Of a DNA stretch of 64,000 bases, positions 899-63,296 are shown one piece after another (the stretch's first letter is position 1; every line of letters begins with the position of its first letter). A program made the position numbers and the translations under genes. The notes under the pieces are model-generated. The model made no database searches. It saw only the letters and a list, made by a program, of their open reading frames with translations, and had not been told where the DNA came from. Origin of the DNA: a virus (lineage: Duplodnaviria; Heunggongvirae; Uroviricota; Caudoviricetes); the IMG/VR virus record IMGVR_UViG_3300036985_002287, positions 30,613-94,612 of that record; one strand, 5' to 3'.

Positions 899-926
899 AT
901 TATAGCAGATGTAGGAAAAATGTCAA
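899..926 (-). promoter_or_regulatory. sigma70-type promoter TTGACA-N16-TATAAT
   Basis: minus strand reads TTGACA (926-921), 16 nt, TATAAT (904-899); 24 nt leader with SD before ATG 874. Confidence 0.7.
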
Positions 927-1853: not shown

Positions 1854-2024
1854 TTATTTTACTATTTCGATTTGGATACACCGTGAACGGGCACCGCTAT
1901 CTTTAGCCATTTCCTGCATACGTTGGCAACTAGCTAGGTCAGCCACAGGCGGGGAATAACTGAGCTGATTACCATTGTGTCCACCCGAAGTGATGAGCAC
2001 CCAGACTAAGAAGATCGATTTCAT
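1854..2024 (-). CDS. small secreted protein (signal-peptide-like N-terminus)
   Basis: Track ORF 1854-2147 trimmed to internal MKSIFLVWVLITSGG... because promoter 2050-2077 and terminator 2092-2120 lie inside the longer version. Confidence 0.45.
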   Translation of the reverse strand: MKSIFLVWVLITSGGHNGNQLSYSPPVADLASCQRMQEMAKDSGARSRCIQIEIVK

Positions 2025-2049
2025 TTTGCTTCCTTGTTGCAATACACTC

Positions 2050-2077
2050 ATTATAGCATAACGCAGCATAAGGTCAA
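2050..2077 (-). promoter_or_regulatory. sigma70-type promoter TTGACC-N16-TATAAT
   Basis: rev-comp of ggtcaa (2072-2077) and attata (2050-2055). Confidence 0.6.
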
Positions 2078-2091
2078 TAGGATATGTACTC

Positions 2092-2120
2092 AAAAGAAAA
2101 GCCCGGGCGATAGGCCCAGG
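2092..2120 (-). terminator. intrinsic terminator of the ncRNA unit
   Basis: minus strand CCTGGGC-CTATC-GCCCGGG (7 bp incl. one G-U) followed by CTTTTCTTTT. Confidence 0.7.
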
Positions 2121-2451
2121 CTTCAATGTCTTTATCACTGACGGCACCAGGAACCCCTAGAACCGCTCTTCGTCACCACCCTCTACGGCGCTGTGTGACT
2201 ACCTATTTTCTAACTTCTCTTTATATTATTGACATTATTATCTCTCCAATGAGCTGATAATAAGCGGCCGGGGTTCTACCCCATCTATATTAGTTTTATC
2301 ATTTTAGTTCTTTGGATATATCTCCTCTGCGAGTGGATAATCGCTCAGTTACCTTTAGCCCTTATTTCATATATCATCTCGACAATTCCTACCACTGGTT
2401 AATAGGCTGTGGAGAGAGGATTTGTGTAGCGTACCGGTGCCATTGCTTCTA

Positions 2452-2577
2452 ACACAATACCATAAAACGAGAAGTCCTTTCTTAGTCTCAGCTACTCCAT
2501 AAATTTAAGCGAGTTAAAAAGTTCCCAACGCTTCTACAAGTCTTACAGTTTCGTCCTTCCGGACTCATCAGTTGTGT
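2452..2577 (-). ncRNA. hammerhead self-cleaving ribozyme (type I topology, long stem III insertion)
   Basis: CUGAUGA-GUCC-GGAA-GGAC-GAAA at 2571-2549; stem III ACUGUAAGAC/GUUUUAUGGU; GUA cleavage triplet (cut 2458|2457); stem I ACACAA/UUGUGU. Confidence 0.75.
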
Positions 2578-3103
2578 AATACTATTTATATCAACTACCC
2601 TTGCTCCGGTCTTGAACCGGACACCGAATGGTCACTAAGGCATGCTTGCAGGACCCGATGACAAAACTCATTCAATGCATCCCCATTTCAAGAGTGTATC
2701 AAAAATTCCTAAGGGGACTCGAAACCCCAAACTGATATATTAAAAGAATACCAGCGCGGCCGTTTAAGACGTAGGATGCAGGCCCACTGTCTCATACAGG
2801 AACTTATAGAAACAAGCTAAAAGGTGAAATAACACTACGGTGCCCTAAGTCAGCGAACCAACATTAGAACCAAACCGGGCCAGGGGACACCTCTCTAGCT
2901 GCAACAAGACTTGACAGAATCCACTTGCAGGTGGTAATCTTTCTCGTCAGCTTGCTTCTATAAATTCCCTACAATAACTAAAGTGAAACACATTATGACC
3001 GGGCTGTTATACTCTCTACTAATACCACCAGGGTATTCGGGTCGTTAGTCCGACTTAGTTACCTATCAACTAATGTATCTCACTTTAGCTATCGTATGTG
3101 TTT

Positions 3104-3132
3104 ATTATAATGCCGTTTACTTACACTGTCAA
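3104..3132 (-). promoter_or_regulatory. perfect consensus promoter TTGACA-N17-TATAAT
   Basis: tgtcaa 3127-3132 and attata 3104-3109 on plus strand; overlaps stop of HD gene; drives the ORF-free unit. Confidence 0.75.
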
Positions 3133-3723
3133 CGGTTGTTCCTTACAATACCGTTCTATGTTTGCCCTTGCCTGTTGCTCCCACCTTTCCCGAGCAAAGT
3201 CGGTATGGTAGATGAATTCACGACAGGTTAGAAACTGCTTTAGGAAGGTAGCACTTTTCGATTGATCTGCTGGATAAGAACCGCCATTCTCTTCAATAAT
3301 GTTTATTTGGTTCTGGATAAAGTCTTCATATGGAAGACAGAGTGAAAAGAGATCAGCATCGAGCAAGGTTCCCAGATCACCTCCTAGATCATCTACCATT
3401 CGCTTATTACTTAGATGAATTTCTATACAAGTATATAGAATCAGTTGTGCAGCCTTATCCACCGCTACCATATTATCGGGCGTCATATCACGCCCTGTCA
3501 GTAGAAGTGCAGCAGCAGAGCATCGTTCGTTAGCATCGGATCCAGCACCCGGAATATAGATAGCATCGTGCCAGTATGCTGCCAGTATCAGTTCAGGTGA
3601 TGCTTTCTCATCGATGATCTGAACACCTTTTACAACATTGAGAGCGTGGCCCCAATTATGATAATGACGACTCTTCCAATTGATATCATACCAATACTGT
3701 GCAGAAGTAGCAATGTCTTTCAT
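3121..3723 (-). CDS. HD-superfamily metal-dependent phosphohydrolase
   Basis: RHYHNWGHALNV...AAYWHDAIY (H..HD pattern); start moved to MKDIATS (ATGA overlap with upstream stop). Confidence 0.65.
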   Translation of the reverse strand: MKDIATSAQYWYDINWKSRHYHNWGHALNVVKGVQIIDEKASPELILAAYWHDAIYIPGAGSDANERCSAAALLLTGRDMTPDNMVAVDKAAQLILYTCIEIHLSNKRMVDDLGGDLGTLLDADLFSLCLPYEDFIQNQINIIEENGGSYPADQSKSATFLKQFLTCREFIYHTDFARERWEQQARANIERYCKEQPLTV

Positions 3724-6015: not shown

Positions 6016-6218
6016 TTTACTTTCCTCGGTTTCGGGAAATATCCTTCGGCAAGGTCGTCAGTGATAGAATTCATAAAGCGTGTCATACTTTCGACATCGC
6101 CGTGTGCCTGGAAAAATTTCTTCTTGGCACCGTCGGCAAACCGTGTAACAGTGATATGAAGATACTTATCGATGTCTTCAGTAACTTCAAAATCAAACAG
6201 TGTCATTAATTTCTGCAT
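6012..6218 (-). CDS. hypothetical protein
   Basis: 68 aa ORF. Confidence 0.5.
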   Translation of the reverse strand: MQKLMTLFDFEVTEDIDKYLHITVTRFADGAKKKFFQAHGDVESMTRFMNSITDDLAEGYFPKPRKVK

Positions 6219-6651
6219 CTTCGGCCTTTAGTTTTCTAAGTCTCAGAACTTCTTTTGTTTCGCCCTTGCTCTTCTTACCATTGCAGGGAGAGCACATAAT
6301 TTGCGTATTGGTAAGATCGTCTGCACCACCCAATGCCCTTGCTTTGATATGATCATGAGTGAATAGAATCTCCTCACCATCACGTACACCATATAGGTTG
6401 AGGTGCCAGGAATCTTGTCCAGGAGATTGCTCCACAGCGAAGAATGTAGCTTCCAAATCGCAGCATACGCACTTCATACCTTTAGCACTCAATCCAGCAC
6501 GAGCAAATGTTCTCATACGGCGAGAGGATACACCTACCCAAATGCCGGATGATCGTTGGATACGGACTCGCTTTTCTTTCCAATGTGTTTTCACATAAGG
6601 AATAATTTCAGAAATGGGTATTACTTCGGATCGAAGGTATCTTTGTGTCAT
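6193..6651 (-). CDS. HNH endonuclease
   Basis: FTHDHIKARALGGADDLTNTQIMCSPCNGKKS = HNH motif; Cys pairs upstream. Confidence 0.8.
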   Translation of the reverse strand: MTQRYLRSEVIPISEIIPYVKTHWKEKRVRIQRSSGIWVGVSSRRMRTFARAGLSAKGMKCVCCDLEATFFAVEQSPGQDSWHLNLYGVRDGEEILFTHDHIKARALGGADDLTNTQIMCSPCNGKKSKGETKEVLRLRKLKAEDAEINDTV

Positions 6652-7697: not shown

Positions 7698-8866
7698 GGT
7701 GTCTTATCGAACTGTCCTATGTTATAAAATCGAGAAAATATCGATTTTGTTGCAATTTTGTTACCTAGCGGATCTAAATCACAATACATGGCATCAATAT
7801 CATCCATCTCGGATGAATAATTATGGCGCCACGCTGCGATCGAATCTTTCAATTCTGGATGAGAATATAACCAGTAGTCCTTATCTTCTCTAAATACACT
7901 CTTAGGCTTCTCAGCCTGAAAGCGACTAAAATCCCAATCTTTATATATTATAGTACGAATAGCATGTTGCGCCAATTCTGCGGCAGCATGGGCTTGATCT
8001 TTTGTTTCTGTATCCCATTTTCTTTGAATGAGAGGTCTCATAGCAGGATTATTATTAAAATATTGGAATACTTGATAGGCCTGCTCGTACACTAATTCGG
8101 GCATATTGGGTGCCCAATAAAATAATTCTAATCCCTCTGTATTCTCGTGATAAGGTGTACTGACTGCAATTATACCATCATTAAATACCATACCAACATC
8201 ACCTTCGTCGTCGGCTACTACAATCGGTTTATCGACCCCCCATATCTCTGCAACCCGCTTACCTGCAGATAACCACTTTTTCTCGTTTTCGGAGAATGTC
8301 TGCATACGCATAAGATTTGCTGCCGAGTGCAGATGCTGTTGTGTTTCAAATAGTGAATCCTTAAAGTATTCAGGACTACATTTATCGACCCATTCGGCAA
8401 CTTCGATTTTTATTTCTGGATGATTTTGTGCAAGCCATTCCAGATCTTTTTTAATCACAAGATCCCATTCACTCATGAAATTGTAGGCGCTCTTGTCATC
8501 TGATCTGACCCGGTGTAGTGGTTGCGCCTTCATGGGCCAGCGAACAAATATACAATCCAGTTTTATATTATTTTTTAAGAAAGTATTCAGAACAGTCCAG
8601 CTATCGCTACCTCCACTGTAATATAACACGAGGTAATCATATGAATCCCTTATCTGTTGAGCTCTTTCTTTATATAATGTTTCTAACGGAGTTTTTCCTA
8701 ATATAGATTTATCGAAATTTAACCATGTATTAAAGAAATAGGAATAGTGTACCCGAGTTTTACTTTTCGATGCCTGCACTAATGCTTCGATCTTATTATA
8801 GTATTTTACATACTTCCCGGCATCATTCTGTGCCCACCATTCTCCATTCTTGTATAAATGTTTCAT
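7694..8866 (-). CDS. PP-loop (SGGxDS) ATP pyrophosphatase-family protein
   Basis: LVLYYSGGSDSWTVL PP-loop motif about 85 aa from N-terminus; 390 aa; ATGA overlap with downstream TctC gene. Confidence 0.55.
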   Translation of the reverse strand: MKHLYKNGEWWAQNDAGKYVKYYNKIEALVQASKSKTRVHYSYFFNTWLNFDKSILGKTPLETLYKERAQQIRDSYDYLVLYYSGGSDSWTVLNTFLKNNIKLDCIFVRWPMKAQPLHRVRSDDKSAYNFMSEWDLVIKKDLEWLAQNHPEIKIEVAEWVDKCSPEYFKDSLFETQQHLHSAANLMRMQTFSENEKKWLSAGKRVAEIWGVDKPIVVADDEGDVGMVFNDGIIAVSTPYHENTEGLELFYWAPNMPELVYEQAYQVFQYFNNNPAMRPLIQRKWDTETKDQAHAAAELAQHAIRTIIYKDWDFSRFQAEKPKSVFREDKDYWLYSHPELKDSIAAWRHNYSSEMDDIDAMYCDLDPLGNKIATKSIFSRFYNIGQFDKTP

Positions 8867-10050
8867 TACGGTATAATCTCCACAAAATCGTATATTGATG
8901 CAGTAGTTACTAATTGTTTATCTTCTACCGATAATTTACTGAACCATTTTACTGGATCACCTTCTGCCATCCGTCTGCCTAAATATTTAACTAATTCGCA
9001 AACGGGCTCGACTACTTCTGTACGATAGCTATCATTCTTAAGGACATAAGCTATATGCAAATTCTTCATGCAGTTACCACGACACCATTCCACGGCTTCA
9101 CATCTATGGCATGGCATATCTGGATGCATCTGCAAAGGGCTATGTGTTAAAGTATTATCGGTAATGGAACCATGCTGCATATCGGGCACCCATGTCATAT
9201 CTGTACACGCAAATATTTTTCCATCAGGGCTTATATTAACTGCATTAGTTGAAGACCGACACTGTGCTTTACCCGAACATTGTGCAGCAGCCGCACCAGG
9301 CACCGCCATGTTACGCGCAATGCCCATTAATGGTACAATAGGGTAGACACCGTCATAGGAATAGAATCTATCTACCAATTGGTCGATCACTCGTTTTTTT
9401 GCTTCCATATGTTCGGGGTAATATACACCTTTTTGTTGAGCAAATTGAAAATGCACCCAATCAAATGTTTCTAATAATTTATCGAAAGCTTCAGAAGGTA
9501 AGTCTGGATCACACCAAGTAACTCTTGCAGTCAGTGTACCTGTTACCCTGGACTGTATTGCTCCTACATTTTTCATAATGTTAGCAAATACATTCTTACC
9601 ACGATACTTATTCGTTATTTGTTCGGTACCATCTATCGATATAAGGAAATTTGTAAAGCGTGATAGCACATCGTCATCTATTTTATTCAATAGTGTGCCA
9701 TTTGTTATAATTTGATATTCCGCAAAAGGAAACCGATCCATAACTTCTGTTATGAACGGCCTGTTCATTAACGGCTCGCCGCCAAAGAATGTGAAATAGA
9801 TATCCTTATCAGACAAGTGAGTATCAACAAATGTCTCTAATTCGTCTAAAGAATATGTAGGTTTTCCTTGAGATGAGAGAATATCTCCTTCGCCTAACAC
9901 ACAGTAAGAACAACTAAGATTGCACTTCAGTGTAGTAGATATCTGGATTTCAACTCTGTTACCACTAATTGCTGGCAGAATTACTGTATCCATGCTCTTT
10001 CTATTATCGATCAACTTCTGTTTTAATAAAATTTGCAAGTTTTGCAGCAT
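8866..10050 (-). CDS. radical SAM enzyme with C-terminal SPASM-like Cys cluster
   Basis: CNLSCSYC (CxxxCxxC), FGGEPLMN, ITNGTLL, C-terminal CxxC...C...C (CHRCEAVEWCRGNC); start may be ATG 9993 (MDTVIL). Confidence 0.8.
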   Translation of the reverse strand: MLQNLQILLKQKLIDNRKSMDTVILPAISGNRVEIQISTTLKCNLSCSYCVLGEGDILSSQGKPTYSLDELETFVDTHLSDKDIYFTFFGGEPLMNRPFITEVMDRFPFAEYQIITNGTLLNKIDDDVLSRFTNFLISIDGTEQITNKYRGKNVFANIMKNVGAIQSRVTGTLTARVTWCDPDLPSEAFDKLLETFDWVHFQFAQQKGVYYPEHMEAKKRVIDQLVDRFYSYDGVYPIVPLMGIARNMAVPGAAAAQCSGKAQCRSSTNAVNISPDGKIFACTDMTWVPDMQHGSITDNTLTHSPLQMHPDMPCHRCEAVEWCRGNCMKNLHIAYVLKNDSYRTEVVEPVCELVKYLGRRMAEGDPVKWFSKLSVEDKQLVTTASIYDFVEIIP

Positions 10051-57054: not shown

Positions 57055-57628
57055 TTTTAGTTCTCCTTCTCTCATGAGCAAGTTTCATGGATATAGATCT
57101 CTTGAGACGTGTTTCTTCGGAGACCTCCTTACCTCTGTTTCCTGCTTGAATCTTTAATTTAGTTTCCGCGGAATGTTGTTTACCTAACATGGGGCCGGGT
57201 TTACCATATCCGTGATGTTTTTCTCCAGAAAACTGTTTTAATTTTGTTTTTTGTTCTTCAGACATAATCCTGCCAAAACAAACATTCTTCTCCCCGAGCA
57301 TAGATTCGCTTTTCTTACGTTTTTCTTCTTCTGTCCAGGCTCTTCCACCCTTAGAATGGCCTATCTTACCCACATTACCTTCGCCGCCATCGGATTTATT
57401 CTGTAATATGCCTGTATTAATATCTTTTCTTCCCCACCACGCAATCATCCTGCGTTCTATCGCCCAGGCACCTATCTCGGATAATTTAGATTCAAGAATC
57501 ACAATTTTCGACTTATCGTTAGGTCTGTTTATGTTTGTGTGCTTTTCCCAGGCTCTCCTGTTTTTACCTTTCCCTATGTAGTAAGGTTTACCGGAGTTAC
57601 CTATATATGCATATACATAGAACATCAT
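57044..57628 (-). mobile_element. GIY-YIG homing-endonuclease gene (Seg-like, NUMOD3-type repeats)
   Basis: YVYAYIGNSGKPYYIGKG (GIY-YIG); repeated G..HSxETKxK motifs; free-standing between sigma-like gene and iscU, overlapping both. Confidence 0.75.
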
Positions 57629-58761
57629 ACACGTCCAAATGCGTTGCCGGTAAGTGCTTCATTTGAGCCTTTATATTGGTGTGGATCGTATCCATGTATA
57701 GGAGAAAAGAGTCCTTTGCGTTCGTTTTCGTCTGCCCTCGGTTGGCCAAAACGATGCATCTGATCCGGCATTACTCTATCTAACCAAGAGACCACGAATG
57801 GACGGATATCTCGATTAGGCTCGGTGTCCTCTAGTGTTCTTATTTGATCATTCAACTCGTCATCATCTATAATTTCTATTAGGTAGATAGATGCTACTGC
57901 TGCTGGAATAGGATTTTCCATTATTCGCTTAACTACTTCGAAATCATCGTCTGTCAACGGTAACTTGTTCACTGATTCATTGACTCTACCTACTGGTCTG
58001 AAATCGTATTTGTCTGGATTTTTATCTTCTCTGCCTAAGAATACGGCGGTGTTACTGGCCTTCCCTGGCGTTTTATATATGTGGCCGGGAACCCTTTTGT
58101 TCGTAGATTTATCGTATATTTCGTAATATTTAACATCTCCGGCAGTAGCATTGTTAGTAATATTAGGTGTAGGAATCTTAGATAACTCCTTAGCCCGGTC
58201 GATATAAGCTGCCTTCATGATTCCCCGTAATCCACTTGCTTCGAGTTGTCTGATTCTTTCTCTGGTGACACCCATTTGTTCCGCAATTTCCTGGTATGTC
58301 ATTTCACCAAATACTCTCATCTTAATTACTTCGGCAATTCTGTCGGGTAGCATTGACATATACTTTTTAATAACCTGATCTCGGGTCATTGGGCTAAGTT
58401 CTTCTTCATATCCGTCGTCAGGTACTGAACTTAGTGGTTCAGCATTATCTGCCGGGTCAGGTCTTAAAGTGGGCATCTGCTCTCCACGATAGGTAGCGCC
58501 ATCCGGATTATATAGACTCATCTGTTGTTTAGGATTTGCTTCAGTTATAGCAATTTCTTTTATTGCTGCTTTGAATTCATCATAGTCTGTCTTCAAATGT
58601 GCTTTTAAGAATTCTTTTCCAGACTTAGATGTTTTAGGATCACATATCTTATCTACATATCCGGTCATGCGCTTTTGCAAGGCATCGATCTTTTTGATTT
58701 TTTGAGGCGATAGACTCTTGTCGGAAGTGCCTTTAGGTAATAGGATTTCTAAAATTCTCAT
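57625..58761 (-). CDS. sigma-70 region-4-like HTH protein (atypical sigma factor or transcription regulator)
   Basis: RIAEVIKMRVFGEMTYQEIAEQMGVTRERIRQLEASGLRGI = region 4.2 signature in mid-protein; no region 2 recognised. Confidence 0.5.
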   Translation of the reverse strand: MRILEILLPKGTSDKSLSPQKIKKIDALQKRMTGYVDKICDPKTSKSGKEFLKAHLKTDYDEFKAAIKEIAITEANPKQQMSLYNPDGATYRGEQMPTLRPDPADNAEPLSSVPDDGYEEELSPMTRDQVIKKYMSMLPDRIAEVIKMRVFGEMTYQEIAEQMGVTRERIRQLEASGLRGIMKAAYIDRAKELSKIPTPNITNNATAGDVKYYEIYDKSTNKRVPGHIYKTPGKASNTAVFLGREDKNPDKYDFRPVGRVNESVNKLPLTDDDFEVVKRIMENPIPAAVASIYLIEIIDDDELNDQIRTLEDTEPNRDIRPFVVSWLDRVMPDQMHRFGQPRADENERKGLFSPIHGYDPHQYKGSNEALTGNAFGRV

Positions 58762-61079: not shown

Positions 61080-63296
61080 TTAATTTAATATTTCTTCTAA
61101 GATAGGAGATATAACGTCAATACTCAATGCATCTCCTACAATGTCATAATCGACGTTTGCTCTACCGCCATTTCTTAATTTTCCGAATAAGATTTCTTTA
61201 GACAGTGGCTTTTTAACTTTCTCTTCAAACAACCGTTCAAATGGTCGCGCACCCATCTTAGGATCATATCCATTCTTAGCTAACCAGTCACGTGCTTGTT
61301 GAGTAACATTTATGCTAATATTCTTAGGAGAAAGCATTACGTCAAGCTTCTCTACCTCGGCGTTAACAATTAAGTTCATGCCAGACATAGTTAATTTATT
61401 AAATGTCACTATACCATCTAATCTATTTCTAAATTCCGGAGTAAAGAAGCGTTTAACTTCTGCTTCTACTGCATTACTATTGTCCTGATTGCCAAATCCG
61501 ATTTTTAATTTTTCAGTTTCGGCGGCACCCAGATTAGCCGACATAATAATTATCACATTTGAAAAATCAATTGTCTTACCTTTAGACGAAGTAAGCCGGC
61601 CGGCATCCATAACTTGTAATAATACACTAAGAACGTCCGGATTAGCCTTCTCAATTTCATCTAACAGTAATACACAGTTAGGATGTGTATCAATCGTCTG
61701 GATTAGTTGTCCCTCACCCATCTTACCTTCGCCGTGTCCTACATACCCGGGAGGCGCACCAATAAATTTAGATACAGTATGCTTTTCCATATACTCGGAC
61801 ATATCAAATCTAGCAAAATGTACACCCAATGTTTCGGCAAGTTTACTAGCCGTATAAGTCTTACCAGTTCCTGTAGGGCCAGTAAACAAGAAACTACCGA
61901 TGGGCTTAGATGGATTTCGTAATCCTGCCTTAGACATAAAAATAGCTTCGACTAATTTATCAATTGCTTCATCTTGTTCATATACCTTGTCCTTCATACG
62001 CGGAGCAAGATTCTCGAGTGAAGTATTCTCTTTCATATCAATCATATCAACAGGCATATGTGCAATCTTTGCCGCCTGCTGCACAATAGTATCGATAGTA
62101 ACGACTGTCTGATCCATCAGTTTAGTTATCGCGCCAGCTGAATCCATAATATCGATTGCTTTGTCAGGGAAGAACTTCGACTTCAGATATCGGTCAGCTA
62201 AATCCACGCACATATCTGTGGCACCTTCCTCGAAAGTAACACCATGGAATTTTTCGTATTGATAAGCAATACCTTTAAGAATTAATTTAGTCTCTATTGC
62301 GGACGGTTGTTCAATATCATATTTTTGGAAGCGACGAAGCAATGCTTTGTCCTTCTCGAAGTGTTGATGGAACTCGTCGTATGTGGTCGCACCTACACAA
62401 GTTAATTGTCCTTTGGCAAGCATAGGTTTCAACAAATTGCCTGCATCCATTTGACCACCACCTGCGGCGCCCGCACCTAAGATCATATGAATTTCATCAA
62501 TGAACATAATGCAGTTGCCCATTTTCTTAACTTGCTCTAAAACACCTTTAAGACGTTCTTCAAAGTCTCCACGGAATTTTGTGCCAGCAATCAGTGCGCC
62601 AACATCTAAACTATATACTACTTTGTTCTGTAATGCTTTAGGCACTTCTTTATTAACAATTTTTAATGCAAGTCCTTCAGCAAGTGCTGTCTTTCCAACA
62701 CCGGGTTCGCCCACGTAAACTACGTTATTCTTTCTGCGTCTAGCAAGAATTTCGATAGTATCCATAACTTCTTTTTCTCTACCGATTACAGGATCGATAG
62801 ATCCGTCAGTAGCTTCCTTATTCAGATTACGTGCATATTGATCTAAGAAAGTCTCATTAGGTCCTTGCTTTTCTTCCGACTTACGCAGTTGTCCCATAAT
62901 CTTTTCTCTGGTAACACCGTGTTTACCTAAGTAATAGAATGCATGACTAGTTTCTTCACTAAGGATACTCAGTAGAATACCTTCGTTAGTCAATTCTCTG
63001 CGACCCGAAAATATTACTTGAGTTAATGCACGTTGAAACGTGCGATTTAATACTGATGTACGCTTTGCCGGCACATCTTTGAGTGCATCAGGTTTCTTTA
63101 GTGCAGGATCACCCAAAAATTGGACAGTTTCGACCTTAATCTTAGCCGGTTGTCCGCCTACTGCAAGTATAAGTTCGTTAACTTCTTTCTCATGCAACAG
63201 AGATAATAGCATATGTTCTAAGGTTACATATTCGTGATTATTGTCATTAGCGAGAGTCACTGCTCTCTCGATCATCTTTTCTACTTTTTTAGTCAT
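61080..63296 (-). CDS. ClpA/ClpB-family double-AAA+ chaperone (ClpA-like length)
   Basis: Clp_N repeat; [15 protein letters not shown] and [15 protein letters not shown]alker A motifs; 738 aa, no long M-domain. Confidence 0.85.

What the first reader, a model, noticed from the sequence alone, without database searches (positions are those of the whole stretch)
2092..3132. About 1 kb promoter-to-terminator unit with no ORF: candidate large structured phage RNA
No ORF of 60 aa or more exists in any frame for about 970 bp between the HD-hydrolase gene (stop at 3121) and the next gene (ATG 2024). Elsewhere in this genome genes abut or overlap. Read on the minus strand, the stretch starts with a perfect TTGACA-N17-TATAAT promoter (3104-3132). 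It ends with the hairpin CCTGGGC-CTATC-GCCCGGG followed by CTTTTCTTTT (2092-2120). It is visibly more GC-rich than the flanking coding DNA. It also contains many short GC hairpins, for example GTCG-GACTAA-CGAC, AATACC-CTGGT-GGTATT, CCAC-CTGCAA-GTGG and GGGG-TAGAA-CCCC. It lies in the part of the genome that also carries tRNAs. Large ornate RNAs such as GOLLD and ROOL are known to sit in phages next to tRNAs, but I cannot assign a family by eye.
Basis: partly seen in the sequence, partly recalled or inferred. Interest (0 to 1): 0.8.

Follow-up and report, generated by a model that had tools for sequence, protein, structure and literature searches.

The report
Structured phage RNA with hammerhead ribozyme
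A 1-kb protein-free stretch of a giant phage genome encodes a chain of conserved folded RNAs, including two tRNA-shaped modules and a predicted self-cutting hammerhead ribozyme, and only the ribozyme resembles anything in the current RNA family catalogue.

Summary
Window 2148-3120 is the longest stretch of the 64-kb window with no ORF of 60 aa or more. It lies between a perfect sigma-70 promoter (3132-3104, minus strand) and an intrinsic terminator (2124-2092). It is not GC-rich.

It is non-coding structured RNA, conserved in 13 other distinct uncultivated phage contigs (up to 369 kb). It is absent from 50,697 deposited phage genomes at blastn sensitivity. No Rfam 15 family reaches its threshold, including GOLLD, ROOL, tRNA and tmRNA.

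Covariation supports four elements:
- a 22-bp long-range helix closing a ~170-nt domain;
- two tRNA-shaped modules (M3, M4) with T-arm-like hairpins;
- a hammerhead with a complete catalytic core, type-I topology and a conserved 71-nt insertion in stem III. Predicted cleavage is between 2458 and 2457.

Modules are gained, lost and separated by small ORFs, a homing endonuclease or their own promoters in relatives. The ~1-kb transcript is therefore best read as a fused operon of at least two RNAs, not one ornate fold. The hammerhead would release the 3' RNA.

Biological role is unknown. One M3 loop equals the tRNA-Lys(UUU) anticodon loop, which suggests tRNA mimicry. All evidence is computational; no transcript or cleavage data exist.

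The parts
3104..3132 (-). Sigma-70-type promoter: -35 TTGACA at 3132-3127, -10 TATAAT at 3109-3104. The inferred start is near A3097. It overlaps the stop codon of the upstream gene.
   Evidence: 12 of 12 matches. The hexamers are conserved in L001-L003, and comparable promoters sit in front of the unit in L012, L025, L026, L027 and L028.
2970..3096 (-). Domain A, a 5' hairpin domain. The 26-bp stem pairs 3096-3071 with 2995-2970. The apical part carries the hairpins GUCG-GACUAA-CGAC (3054-3041) and AAUACC-CUGGU-GGUAUU (3037-3021). The domain is optional in the family.
   Evidence: Inverted repeat. By direct reading, the four non-Watson-Crick positions are all G-U or U-G wobbles on the minus-strand RNA. 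MFE z = -6.4 on the sense strand against -2.1 on the antisense strand. The domain is present in L001 and L018, replaced by a tRNA-like module in L002, and absent in L003, L004, L007 and L012.
2798..2969 (-). Domain I. The long-range helix P0 (2969-2948 with 2819-2798, 22 bp) closes three arms: CCAC-CUGCAA-GUGG (2934-2921), UCUUG-UUGCAG-CUAGA (2909-2894), and a variable hairpin M2 (about 2893-2822) on an AGAG/CUUU base.
   Evidence: 96% of cells paired against 41-49% when slid, and 10 of 22 pairs changed on both sides across 9 variants. Arms. z = -4.1.
2705..2803 (-). M3, a tRNA-shaped module. P1 is GUUCCUG/UAGGAAU. Arm a has a CUGCAUC loop. The junction is AACGGCCGCG. Arm b has the loop CUUUUAA. 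Arm c is GGGG-UUUCGAGU-CCCC, which is T-arm-like.
   Evidence: Model R2 finds one copy per locus at 43-123 bits; 85.9% paired against 35-52% when slid, with 14 of 24 pairs changed on both sides. ARAGORN calls it only at an 80% threshold and not at the default or 90% thresholds.
2597..2695 (-). M4, a tRNA/tmRNA-TLD-shaped module. P1 is ACUCUUG/CAAGGGU. The junction AAAUGGGGAUG is invariant. A long arm P2-P3-P4 ends in the invariant 11-nt loop CCUGCAAGCAU. The T-arm is UCCGG-UUCAAGA-CCGGA (2621-2605).
   Evidence: 89.5% paired against 31-49% when slid, with 16 of 30 pairs changed on both sides and 0 of 500 shuffles reaching the observed value. Model R1 finds one copy per locus at 51-125 bits and gives weak cross-hits to a true tRNA.
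2452..2577 (-). Hammerhead ribozyme with type-I topology. Stem I is 2577-2572 with 2457-2452. The core CUGAUGA is at 2571-2565. Stem II with a GGAA loop is at 2564-2553. GAA is at 2552-2550. Stem III is 2549-2540 with 2468-2459 and encloses a conserved 71-nt insertion (2539-2469). H17 is A2458. Cleavage is predicted between 2458 and 2457.
   Evidence: Rfam Hammerhead_3 gives a partial hit of 28 bits, E=0.0019. The core pattern is unique in the window, with 0.03 matches expected by chance. Covariation in all three stems: 91-96% paired against 34-48% when slid, and 10-12 of 20 pairs changed on both sides.
2422..2457 (-). Alternative (post-cleavage) hairpin. UUGUGUUAG (2457-2449) pairs with CUACACAA (2429-2422). 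This pairing excludes hammerhead stem I.
   Evidence: Direct reading. When UUGUGU becomes UUGUAC in L012, both partners change (GUACAA upstream, GUGCAA downstream). L003 has UUGUGUU/AACAUAA and L004 has UUGUGU/GCACAA. The pairing is weaker or unclear in L027 and L029.
2125..2457 (-). M6, the 3' RNA released by the hammerhead. It has conserved blocks: GGAGAUAUAUCCAAAG, GGGG-UAGAA-CCCC (2282-2270), and GGCCGC followed by the covarying hairpin UUAUUAUC/GAUAAUAA and then UGUCAAUAAUAUA.
   Evidence: Alignments. The same blocks follow the hammerhead in L012, L027 and L029. Thermodynamic z is only -1.0, and no formal pair count was made for this domain.
2092..2124 (-). Intrinsic terminator GAAGCCUGGGC-CUAUC-GCCCGGGCUUU followed by UCUUUU.
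   Evidence: Conserved in L001, L002 and L018, with a compensatory change in L001 (GCCCGGGC to GCCCAGGC is tolerated as G-U).

Best explanation
The stretch is a non-coding RNA operon of an uncultivated jumbo phage.

Inferred from the sequence signals: host RNA polymerase starts at a consensus sigma-70 promoter (about 3097) and stops at the terminator (about 2092). This gives a primary transcript of about 1 kb.

Shown by covariation: the transcript is a string of separately folding, separately conserved domains.
- a 26-bp hairpin domain (A);
- a ~170-nt domain closed by a 22-bp helix (Domain I);
- two tRNA-shaped modules (M3, M4). Each has a 7-bp closing stem next to a T-arm-like hairpin and a shared AAUGG junction motif;
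- a hammerhead ribozyme;
- a ~330-nt 3' domain (M6).

Inferred from a complete catalytic core and three covarying stems: the hammerhead cuts in cis after A2458. That would separate a ~640-nt 5' RNA ending in a 2',3'-cyclic phosphate from a ~365-nt 3' RNA starting with a 5'-OH. The first nine bases of the 3' RNA can then refold with a downstream ACACAA into a hairpin. This would release and cap the product, much as an engineered RiboJ insulator does.

In distant relatives the hammerhead plus M6 and the M3/M4 pair are separate transcription units. The window therefore carries a fusion of at least two RNA genes, with the ribozyme as the separator.

Inference only: the tRNA-shaped modules are handled or bound by host tRNA-recognising factors such as RNase P, CCA-adding enzyme, modification enzymes or tRNA-targeting nucleases. 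My preferred role is tRNA mimicry. I hold this with much lower confidence, about 0.25. The confidence of 0.7 given for this explanation applies to the architecture and the self-cleavage, not to the biological role.
For: - Promoter and terminator.
- No coding capacity, and 1-nt indels between close relatives inside M4.
- Homologous units in 13 other distinct contigs.
- The M3-M4 block is 97.8% identical to L003 while the flanking gene is 79% identical.
- Covariation: P0, M3, M4, hammerhead.
- The hammerhead core is unique in the window, with 0.03 matches expected by chance.
- Strand specificity from G-U pairs and MFE asymmetry.
- Modularity:
  - M3 is deleted in L004.
  - M5 is present in some relatives and absent in others.
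  - ORFs sit between M3, M4 and M5 in L007 and L029.
  - M5 has its own promoter in L025.
  - Hammerhead plus M6 sit behind their own promoter-like sites in L027 and L029.
  - A homing endonuclease lies inside the hammerhead in L018 and L009.

- The M4 model cross-hits a genuine tRNA.
- The M3 arm-b loop CUUUUAA equals the E. coli tRNA-Lys anticodon loop.
Against: - There are no transcript, cleavage or processing data.
- Only 7-12 distinct and related sequences support each element.
- Several pair counts used hand-trimmed sequences. The 3' strand of P0 was located by maximising complementarity, which inflates the percentage paired.
- M4, the hammerhead and M6 are not thermodynamically unusual (z -0.1, +0.9, -1.0).
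- The hammerhead scores below Rfam's gathering threshold (28 against 48.5 bits), and no stem I/loop II tertiary contact was identified.
- In the window itself no internal promoter or ORF separates the domains, so they could act together.
- The last 5 bp of P0 compete with P1 of M3.
- The alternative hairpin is unclear in L027 and L029.
- No RNA ligase, CCA-adding enzyme or other obvious RNA partner is encoded in the window.
Confidence: 0.7

Rival explanations
1. One large ornate RNA. The whole ~1-kb transcript, or at least the ~640-nt 5' part, folds into a single higher-order architecture and acts as a unit, as GOLLD and ROOL do. The hammerhead would be a regulated or structural part. The conserved UGCA-containing loops would make intra- or intermolecular kissing contacts, possibly giving multimers.
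For: Domain order is fixed wherever the domains co-occur. Domain I, M3 and M4 are contiguous, and P0 abuts P1 of M3. Four invariant hairpin loops carry the palindrome UGCA. GOLLD, ROOL and OLE form homo-oligomers (PMC12286853).
Against: There is no Rfam hit to any large RNA. Modules occur alone, in subsets, with ORFs between them or under separate promoters. TGCA is not enriched (5 per kb, the window background). No covariation links different domains, although the loops are invariant and so cannot inform on this. The hammerhead is predicted to split the RNA.
Confidence: 0.15
2. A punctuation cassette. The tRNA-shaped modules and the hammerhead are processing signals (RNase P/Z sites plus a ribozyme) that cut polycistronic early transcripts into separate small-ORF mRNAs. 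This would resemble mitochondrial tRNA punctuation or multi-hammerhead phage operons. The window copy would have lost its ORFs.
For: In L007 and L029, ORFs lie exactly between M3, M4 and M5. In L002 and L012 an ORF lies between M4 or M5 and the hammerhead. In L012 the stop codon lies inside the hammerhead core. Hammerheads that flank genes in phage-derived polycistronic RNAs are known (PMC3088659).
Against: The window, L001, L003 and L004 carry the full set of modules with no ORF at all. The loops and junctions of M3 and M4 are invariant over wide divergence, which a mere cleavage signal does not need. The inserted ORFs are unrelated to one another, as expected for secondary insertions.
Confidence: 0.12
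3. A tRNA-Lys decoy (a functional sub-hypothesis). M3 presents a tRNA-Lys(UUU)-like anticodon loop on a tRNA-shaped scaffold. It would titrate or block host anticodon nucleases and tRNA-targeting defences such as PrrC-like enzymes or PARIS AriB. M4 would add a second tRNA elbow.
For: The arm-b loop CUUUUAA is identical to the E. coli tRNA-Lys anticodon loop. It recurs in the window, L001, L003, L018 and L029, with CUUUUAU in L009 and L028. The phage encodes Leu, Met and Arg tRNAs but no Lys tRNA. The unit has a strong early-type promoter. tRNA-Lys is a known defence target, and phage T5 counters PARIS with a variant tRNA-Lys (PMC11464382).
Against: The host is unknown. Loop identity could be chance: by my rough estimate about 0.04, given the number of loops and anticodon loops. 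L012, L007 and L027 have different arm-b loops. The stem is 7-8 bp rather than 5. Nothing shows that a nuclease would bind it. A decoy role would not explain Domain I, M4, M5 or M6.
Confidence: 0.2
4. Non-functional DNA: a decayed protein gene or a spacer whose hairpins are chance.
For: None beyond the absence of an ORF. The thermodynamic z-scores of some segments are ordinary.
Against: The unit has its own consensus promoter and terminator. Conservation exceeds that of the neighbouring gene. There are dozens of compensatory changes, and the catalytic core is intact and conserved in 7 variants.
Confidence: 0.01

Closest known systems
Hammerhead ribozymes in phage and prophage polycistronic RNAs (Rfam clan CL00010; Perreault et al. 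2011, PMC3088659)
   Same: It has the full conserved core (CUGAUGA...GAAA), G10.1-C11.1, A15.1-U16.1 and a non-G at position 17, with three covarying stems. It lies in a phage intergenic setting and is predicted to cut a multi-gene transcript.
   Different: The topology is type I, with stem I only 6 bp and open. Stem III carries a conserved insertion of roughly 65-125 nt in different relatives (71 nt in the window), so no Rfam hammerhead model reaches threshold. A covarying competitor hairpin lies just after the cleavage site. It separates non-coding RNAs rather than mRNAs. In two relatives it is invaded by a homing endonuclease gene.
GOLLD and ROOL large ornate RNAs (PMC5737381, PMC12286853)
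   Same: It is a large, protein-free, highly structured RNA locus in phage DNA, in genomes that also carry tRNAs, and its function is unknown.
   Different: There is no sequence or structure match (Rfam, E<=10). The locus is modular, and its parts occur separately. It contains a self-cleaving ribozyme and tRNA-shaped modules. It is known so far only from uncultivated phage contigs, mostly large ones.
tRNA-like RNAs: the tmRNA tRNA-like domain, bacterial YrlA (Y RNA) tRNA mimics, and the small stable RNAs of phage tRNA clusters such as T4 species 1 and 2 RNAs (these comparisons are from my own knowledge)
   Same: M3 and M4 have a 7-bp end-closing stem next to a hairpin with a UUCRAGA or UUCGA T-loop-like sequence and a G53-C61-type closing pair. 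M4 lacks a D stem and instead has a G-rich single strand (AAAUGGGGAUG), as the tmRNA TLD does. The phage locus attracts homing endonucleases, as the T4 tRNA region does.
   Different: The tRNA and tmRNA models and ARAGORN do not detect them. One extra nucleotide lies between the T-arm and the closing stem. The arms have non-tRNA lengths (an 18-bp composite arm with an 11-nt loop in M4). There is no CCA end, no tag ORF and no Ro-binding stem.
Ribozyme-assisted maturation of phage RNAs: theta (HDV-like) ribozymes next to phage tRNAs (PMC10879173), and the engineered RiboJ insulator (RiboJ from my own knowledge)
   Same: A small self-cleaving ribozyme defines the end of a neighbouring structured RNA in a phage. 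As in RiboJ, a hairpin follows the cleavage site at the new 5'-OH end.
   Different: The ribozyme class is hammerhead, not HDV-like. It defines the 5' end of a ~365-nt RNA of unknown function rather than trimming a tRNA 3' trailer.

Membership tests
Hammerhead ribozyme | Conserved catalytic core C3-U4-G5-A6-N7-G8-A9 ... G12-A13-A14 | tested here: met
   CUGAUGAG...CGAAAC at 2571-2548. It is the only such site in 64 kb, with 0.03 expected by chance. The core columns are invariant in 7 distinct variants; N7 is U, C or A.
Hammerhead ribozyme | Three helices (I, II, III) radiating from the core, kept by compensatory changes | tested here: met
   Stems I and II are 100% paired. Overall 91-96% of cells are paired against 34-48% when slid, and 10-12 of 20 pairs changed on both sides.
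Hammerhead ribozyme | A15.1-U16.1 pair and a non-G nucleotide at cleavage position 17 | tested here: met
   A2549-U2459 and A2458. The columns A35-U62 and A63 are invariant.
Hammerhead ribozyme | Score at or above the Rfam gathering threshold of a hammerhead model | tested here: not met
   The best hit is Hammerhead_3 at 28 bits against a threshold of 48.5, E=0.0019. Its alignment lacks stem I. The cause is the 71-nt insertion in stem III and the type-I connectivity. Trimmed sequences could not be scored against Rfam models with these tools.
Hammerhead ribozyme | Self-cleavage by internal transesterification, and a tertiary contact between stem I and loop II | not testable with these tools
   This needs in vitro transcription and cleavage assays. 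Loop II is a GNRA tetraloop in most variants (GGAA, GCAA, GUAA), but no receptor was identified.
GOLLD / ROOL | Match to the family covariance model | tested here: not met
   No hit at the gathering threshold over the window, at E<=10 over 1900-3300, or at E<=1 over seven related loci.
GOLLD / ROOL | Location in phage or prophage DNA close to tRNA genes | tested here: inconclusive
   The context is phage (DNA polymerase B, ligase and other phage genes). The nearest tRNA is 7.9 kb away in the window and about 1.7 kb upstream in L007.
tRNA | Canonical cloverleaf detectable by ARAGORN or the Rfam tRNA model | tested here: not met
   ARAGORN at the default and 90% thresholds finds nothing in six units. 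It gives poor, inconsistent calls for M3 only at the 80% threshold. The Rfam tRNA model gives no hit at E<=10.
tRNA | A 7-bp acceptor-like stem stacked on a 5-bp T stem with a UUCRANN loop and a G53-C61-type closing pair | tested here: met
   M4: ACUCUUG/CAAGGGU plus UCCGG-UUCAAGA-CCGGA, T stem 100% paired, 4 of 5 pairs with changes on both sides. A 1-nt spacer separates the two stems. M3 arm c has an 8-nt loop in the window and a 7-nt UUCGAAU or UUCGAGU loop in L028 and L027. Model R1 cross-hits a true tRNA at 17 bits.
tmRNA | A tRNA-like domain plus an internal tag-peptide ORF and pseudoknots, detected by ARAGORN or Rfam | tested here: not met
   ARAGORN's tmRNA search finds none. There is no Rfam tmRNA hit. 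The M4 arm interior is only about 38 nt, which leaves no room for a tag ORF.
Group I / group II introns, RNase P RNA | Match to the Rfam models | tested here: not met
   There is no intron hit at E<=10. The only 'RNase_P' row is a 16.7-bit partial match to the Plasmodium model on the opposite strand, E=7.6, which is chance level.

The most novel reading that the evidence does not exclude
This is a new class of jumbo-phage non-coding RNA system. An abundant early transcript delivers two tRNA-elbow mimics, one of which displays a tRNA-Lys(UUU) anticodon loop, together with a ribozyme-released partner RNA. The system would act on the host's tRNA world, for example as a decoy or inhibitor of tRNA-targeting defence nucleases or of tRNA-processing and modification enzymes. 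Alternatively, it would assemble through its invariant UGCA loops into a higher-order RNA particle.
Probability: 0.3. Interest if true: 0.85.

Novelty: new variant of a known kind. Interest (0 to 1): 0.7.

Why it matters
Large structured non-coding RNAs in bacteria and phages are rare, and each class has opened new biology: ribozymes, riboswitches, and recently RNA-only cages.

This locus offers the following:
- At least three covariation-supported RNA folds with no Rfam family: Domain I, M3 and M4. Two more candidates are M5 and M6.
- A hammerhead with an unusual architecture: type-I connectivity, a large conserved stem III domain and a covarying competitor helix. This gives a natural example of ribozyme-mediated separation of two non-coding RNAs.
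- tRNA-shaped RNAs in phages at a time when tRNA cleavage is emerging as a major antiphage strategy. This makes a decoy or anti-defence hypothesis directly testable.
- A case of a homing endonuclease gene invading a ribozyme.

The units are short and have E. coli-type promoters and terminators. Cleavage, processing and binding assays are therefore feasible without culturing the phage.

Tried and rejected
- GOLLD, ROOL, HEARO, OLE, tmRNA, RNase P, introns and all other Rfam 15 families. Nothing reached the gathering threshold or E<=10 except the sub-threshold hammerhead hit and chance-level terminator look-alikes.
- Canonical tRNA or tmRNA genes: rejected.
- Coding capacity. No sense ORF exceeds 28 aa, none has a Shine-Dalgarno site, and there are frame-breaking 1-nt indels between close relatives.
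- Tandem or direct repeats, or a CRISPR-like array: none found.
- A second hammerhead at CUGACGAG in Domain I (2950-2943). It is not conserved in relatives and has no GAAA or stems.
- Enrichment of the palindrome UGCA: none.
- Similarity to cultured phages. blastn 'distant' found no match in 50,697 records. Genome contigs gave only a chance hit, L024 in Roseibium. L015, L030 and L031 were also chance pattern hits.
- Elevated GC content: rejected.
- A nearby protein partner such as an RNA ligase, CCA-adding enzyme or RtcB: none found in the window.
- Literature searches for a prior description found none. The searches were limited.
- The first attempt at shuffle z-scores timed out and was repeated on smaller segments.
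Full report
**1. Checking the observation**

I read the region on the minus strand and listed its ORFs. Between the stop of the upstream 217-aa gene (3121) and the ORF holding the next gene's ATG (2024), no ORF of 60 aa or more exists in any frame.

- A six-frame scan of the whole window shows that 2148-3120 (973 nt) is by far the longest such gap. The only other gap of 250 nt or more is 380 nt and contains tRNA-Met.
- On the sense strand the longest ORF is 28 aa, and none has a ribosome-binding site.
- The promoter scan finds TTGACA-N17-TATAAT (12/12) at 3132-3104 on the minus strand. It also finds an 11-pair terminator hairpin at 2124-2098 followed by UCUUUU. A separate promoter for the next gene lies at 2077-2050.
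- The claim of higher GC content is wrong: GC is 0.40-0.44 inside and 0.41-0.45 outside.
- The tRNAs (Leu-UAA, Met-CAU, Arg-UCU) lie 8-10 kb away.
- The upstream protein has no Pfam or PDB match. It hits PHROG 19425 'phosphohydrolase'.

**2. Known RNA families**

cmscan of the whole window at gathering thresholds returns only the three tRNAs. A permissive scan of 1900-3300 (E<=10) returns one interesting row: Hammerhead_3, 28 bits (threshold 48.5), E=0.0019 at 2587-2543. It has a perfect CUGAUGAG-UCC-GGAA-GGA-CGAAAC but no stem I in that alignment. The remaining rows are terminator look-alikes and chance matches. GOLLD, ROOL, tmRNA, RNase P and the introns do not appear. Seven related loci were also blank apart from ordinary tRNAs elsewhere.

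**3. Relatives**

- The unit has no blastn match in 50,697 deposited phage genomes. The neighbouring DNA ligase is only about 42% identical to that of Pseudomonas phages, so this phage is distant from cultured ones.
- The upstream protein led to three IMG/VR contigs with the same unit.
- Exact-pattern scans with invariant pieces of the most conserved block found more in viral contigs and metagenomes. A scan of 185,579 species genomes found only a chance hit.
- After removing duplicates and chance hits there are 13 distinct relatives: L001, L002, L003, L004, L007, L009, L012, L018, L025, L026, L027, L028 and L029. Some sit on contigs of 210, 212 and 369 kb.
- In L003 a 227-nt block (window 2821-2596) is 97.8% identical to the window, while the adjacent protein gene is 79% identical. 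This indicates either strong constraint or recent exchange.
- Close relatives differ by 1-nt indels inside this block, which is incompatible with coding.

**4. The hammerhead**

Aligning relatives showed that the Rfam type-III reading is wrong and that the connectivity is type I.

- Stem I is ACACAA (2577-2572) with UUGUGU (2457-2452).
- The core CUGAUGA is at 2571-2565.
- Stem II is GUCC-GGAA-GGAC (2564-2553).
- GAA is at 2552-2550.
- Stem III is ACUGUAAGAC (2549-2540) with GUUUUAUGGU (2468-2459), enclosing 71 nt.
- A2458 is position 17, and cleavage is predicted between 2458 and 2457.

All three stems covary. Stem I becomes GUACAA/UUGUAC in L012 and GCACAA/UUGUGC in L027 and L029. Stem II becomes GUCG/CGAC, GUCG/CGGC, GUUC/GGAC, GUUC/GAAC and GUUG/CAAC. 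Stem III becomes ACUUUUGAAAC/GUUUCAAAGGU, ACGUCUGAAGC/GCUUCGGACGU, AUGGU/ACCAU and AUGGG/CCCAU.

I made two trimmed alignments, with the stem III interior replaced by GAAA and long loop II sequences shortened. On these, 91-96% of cells pair against 34-48% when the partner is slid. Ten to twelve of 20 pairs change on both sides, and every core column is invariant. The core pattern occurs once in the window, with 0.03 matches expected by chance. The stem III insertion itself contains conserved blocks (CUUGUAGRA, GUUYGGGA, UGAGACU), so it is a functional sub-domain of unknown role.

**5. A competing helix**

The stem I 3' strand can instead pair with a downstream ACACAA: UUGUGUUAG (2457-2449) with CUACACAA (2429-2422). 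In L012 the shared strand is UUGUAC, and both the upstream partner (GUACAA) and the downstream partner (GUGCAA) have changed. L003 (UUGUGUU/AACAUAA) and L004 (UUGUGU/GCACAA) fit as well.

This three-way covariation argues for mutually exclusive helices. My reading, which is inference, is that after cleavage the new 5'-OH end folds into this hairpin. That would release the product and protect its end. A regulatory switch is also possible. In L027 and L029 the equivalent hairpin is weak or unclear.

**6. The tRNA-shaped modules**

M4 (2695-2597) is closed by ACUCUUG/CAAGGGU. This becomes GCCUUUG/CAAAGGC, GCUCACG/CGUGAGU, GUCUCUG/CAGAGAC, CCCUUG/CAAGGG and ACUCUC/GAGAGU in relatives. Inside it are:
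- an invariant single strand AAAUGGGGAUG;
- a long arm (P2 9 bp, P3 5 bp, P4 4 bp) ending in the invariant loop CCUGCAAGCAU;
- a T-arm-like hairpin UCCGG-UUCAAGA-CCGGA, followed by one purine and the closing strand.

Pair counts on a plain MAFFT alignment give 89.5% paired against 31-49% when slid, 16 of 30 pairs with changes on both sides, and 0 of 500 shuffles as high. A covariance model finds exactly one copy per locus at 51-125 bits. Its only other hits are weak matches to genuine tRNAs.

M3 (2803-2705) is a four-way junction:
- P1 is GUUCCUG/UAGGAAU (AUUUCUG/UAGAAAU, GUUUCU/AGAAAC and AAUUCUC/GAGAAUU in relatives).
- Arm a has a CUGCAUC loop.
- The junction is AAYGGCYGCG.
- Arm b ends in CUUUUAA.
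- Arm c is GGGG-UUUCGAGU-CCCC (GGAG/CUCC and CCGG/CCGG in relatives, with canonical 7-nt UUCGAAU or UUCGAGU loops in L028 and L027).

Counts on the model-based alignment give 85.9% paired against 35-52% when slid, and 14 of 24 pairs with changes on both sides.

Neither module is a canonical tRNA. ARAGORN at the default and 90% thresholds and the Rfam tRNA and tmRNA models find nothing. M3, M4 and the first hairpin loop of M6 share the motif AAUGG. In M4 the G-run could play the part of D-loop G18-G19 against the T-loop; this is inference. The arm-b loop CUUUUAA is identical to the anticodon loop of E. coli tRNA-Lys(UUU), which I verified.

**7. Domain I and domain A**

The 5' end of the conserved part, GGGAAUUUAUAGAAGCAAGCUG (2969-2948), pairs over 22 of 22 positions with UAGCUUGUUUCUAUAAGUUCCU (2819-2798). 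The helix persists with many compensatory changes in nine variants, for example GGGGGCGAUAG/CUGUCGUACCC in L012 and UUGCUGGCGAUUG/CAGUCGUCAGCAA in L026. It is 96% paired against 41-49% when slid, with 10 of 22 pairs changed on both sides. One caveat: I located the 3' strand by maximising complementarity.

The helix encloses two conserved hairpins with UGCAA and UUGCA loops, the second of which clearly covaries, and a variable hairpin. Its last five pairs overlap P1 of M3, so the two helices either alternate or stack.

Domain A (3096-2970) is a 26-bp stem. All four of its non-Watson-Crick positions are wobbles on the minus-strand RNA only. Its MFE z is -6.4, against -2.1 for the antisense strand. 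The stem is long enough to be an RNase III substrate (inference).

Thermodynamic z-scores for M4, the hammerhead and M6 are unremarkable. Their support comes from covariation for M4 and the hammerhead, and only from sequence conservation for M6.

**8. One RNA or several?**

Relatives show free recombination of modules.

| Relative | Arrangement |
|---|---|
| L002 | A different tRNA-like module replaces domain A |
| L003, L004, L007, L012 | No domain A |
| L004 | Lacks M3 |
| L003, L004, L007, L009, L012, L025, L029 | Extra module M5 between M4 and the hammerhead (absent from the window) |
| L007, L029 | Small ORFs with ribosome-binding sites between M3, M4 and M5 |
| L002, L012 | An ORF just before the hammerhead |
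| L025 | M5 behind its own consensus promoter, 1.2 kb away |
| L026 | Only Domain I plus M4 |
| L027, L029 | Hammerhead plus M6 behind their own promoter-like sites, after protein genes |
| L018, L009 | A homing endonuclease gene (PHROG 655, E=4e-36) inside the hammerhead. L018 keeps a remnant 5' half and a new complete 5' half overlapping the gene's end |

Two associations are constant. M3 always lies next to or near M4, and the hammerhead is immediately 5' of an M6-type RNA. The latter shares the blocks GGAGAUAUAUCCAAAG and GGGG...CCCCGGCCAC-hairpin-UGCAAUAUA.

I therefore read the window's 1-kb unit as a fusion of at least two RNA genes. RNA-1 comprises A, Domain I, M3 and M4. RNA-2 is M6. 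The hammerhead separates them and creates the 5' end of RNA-2.

**9. Function**

- Shown: conservation, structure, and an intact ribozyme core.
- Inferred: transcription from the promoter, self-cleavage at 2458/2457, and refolding of the product.
- Speculative: what the RNAs do.

The tRNA shape suggests recognition by tRNA-handling proteins. The Lys-type loop suggests mimicry of tRNA-Lys, which is a frequent target of antiphage nucleases. PARIS AriB cleaves host tRNA-Lys, and T5 escapes with a variant tRNA-Lys (PMC11464382). The window encodes no RNA ligase, CCA-adding enzyme or other obvious partner. Alternatives are a single ornate or multimeric RNA as for GOLLD and ROOL (PMC12286853, PMC5737381), or a punctuation cassette for small-ORF mRNAs like the multi-hammerhead operons of PMC3088659.

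**10. Comparison and novelty**

- The ribozyme is a hammerhead by every sequence criterion I could test. Its architecture, however, escapes the Rfam models.
- Domain I, M3, M4, M5 and M6 match nothing in Rfam 15, and my limited literature searches found no description of them.
- The locus resembles GOLLD and ROOL in being a large phage-borne structured RNA locus in tRNA-carrying genomes.
- It resembles phage tRNA clusters in attracting homing endonucleases and encoding odd stable RNAs.
- It resembles theta ribozymes (PMC10879173) in using a ribozyme to mature a neighbouring structured RNA.
- It is not a member of any of those families.

I rate it a new variant of a known kind: a new family of structured phage RNAs built around a known ribozyme class. 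Interest is 0.7. The structural evidence is strong and the system is experimentally tractable, but its function is open and everything here is computational.

Noticed in passing
L018:4065-4898 (-) and L009:11719-12163 (+): A homing endonuclease gene (277 aa; PHROG 655 E=4e-36, HNH-like) is inserted inside the hammerhead, in the stem II / G12-A14 region. L018 keeps a dead 5' half upstream. It has a complete replacement 5' half (ACGCAA-CUGAUGAG-AAGC...GCUU-CGAAAC) that overlaps the end of the endonuclease ORF.
   Followed up: partly
L002:7249-7476; L012:1923-1735; L007:1914-1768 and 1653-1519; L029:5863-5639; L025:2843-2619: Unrelated small ORFs (44-75 aa, several hydrophobic, with Shine-Dalgarno sites) sit exactly at the junctions between RNA modules in relatives. 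In L012 the stop codon UGA lies within the hammerhead core CUGAC.
   Followed up: partly
L003:6974-7051; L004:3287-3365; L009:11593-11666; L012:2125-~2040; L025:1592-1492; L029:5499-5409: Module M5 is absent from the window. It has a GAAA-capped hairpin, then a covarying hairpin with the invariant loop UCCCACCCAAGAAG, then GCGGGCA...GUGGAAGG, which is a pseudoknot candidate. There is no Rfam match. In L025 it has its own consensus promoter.
   Followed up: partly
L002:6643-6745: A different, non-canonical tRNA-like module occupies the position of the window's 5' hairpin domain. It has the T arm AGCGG-UUCGAAU-CCGCU and the acceptor-like stem GGCGUUG/CAUCGUC.
   Followed up: no
L001:6806-6885 region (insert after domain A): L001 carries about 95 extra nt that form a further long hairpin between domain A and Domain I. 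This is another example of modular gain.
   Followed up: no
window 2929, 2903, 2780, 2650: Four conserved hairpin loops (Domain I arms 1 and 2, M3 arm a, M4 P4) each contain the palindrome UGCA. The M4 loop also holds GCAUGC. These could form kissing-loop contacts, but TGCA is not enriched overall.
   Followed up: partly
window 899-926 (-): A second perfect 12/12 sigma-70 promoter, with a TG extension, lies just downstream of the gene at 932-1318. Several near-consensus promoters punctuate this block of small genes.
   Followed up: no
window 6193-6651 (-), 8866-10050 (-), 57625-58761 (-), 61080-63296 (-): The context genes include a free-standing HNH endonuclease, a radical SAM/SPASM protein, a protein with sigma-70 region 4, and a ClpB-like AAA+ chaperone. 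They accompany DNA polymerase B, a 5'-3' exonuclease and sugar epimerases.
   Followed up: no
L029 (sense strand, reverse complement of the stored locus), about 230-380 nt downstream of the start of M4 and just 3' of M5: Between M5 and the hammerhead promoter, L029 has a further stretch with D-loop-like (AGUGGUUAGGA) and T-arm-like (GGGUUGAGUCCCAU) sequences. ARAGORN does not call it as a tRNA.
   Followed up: no
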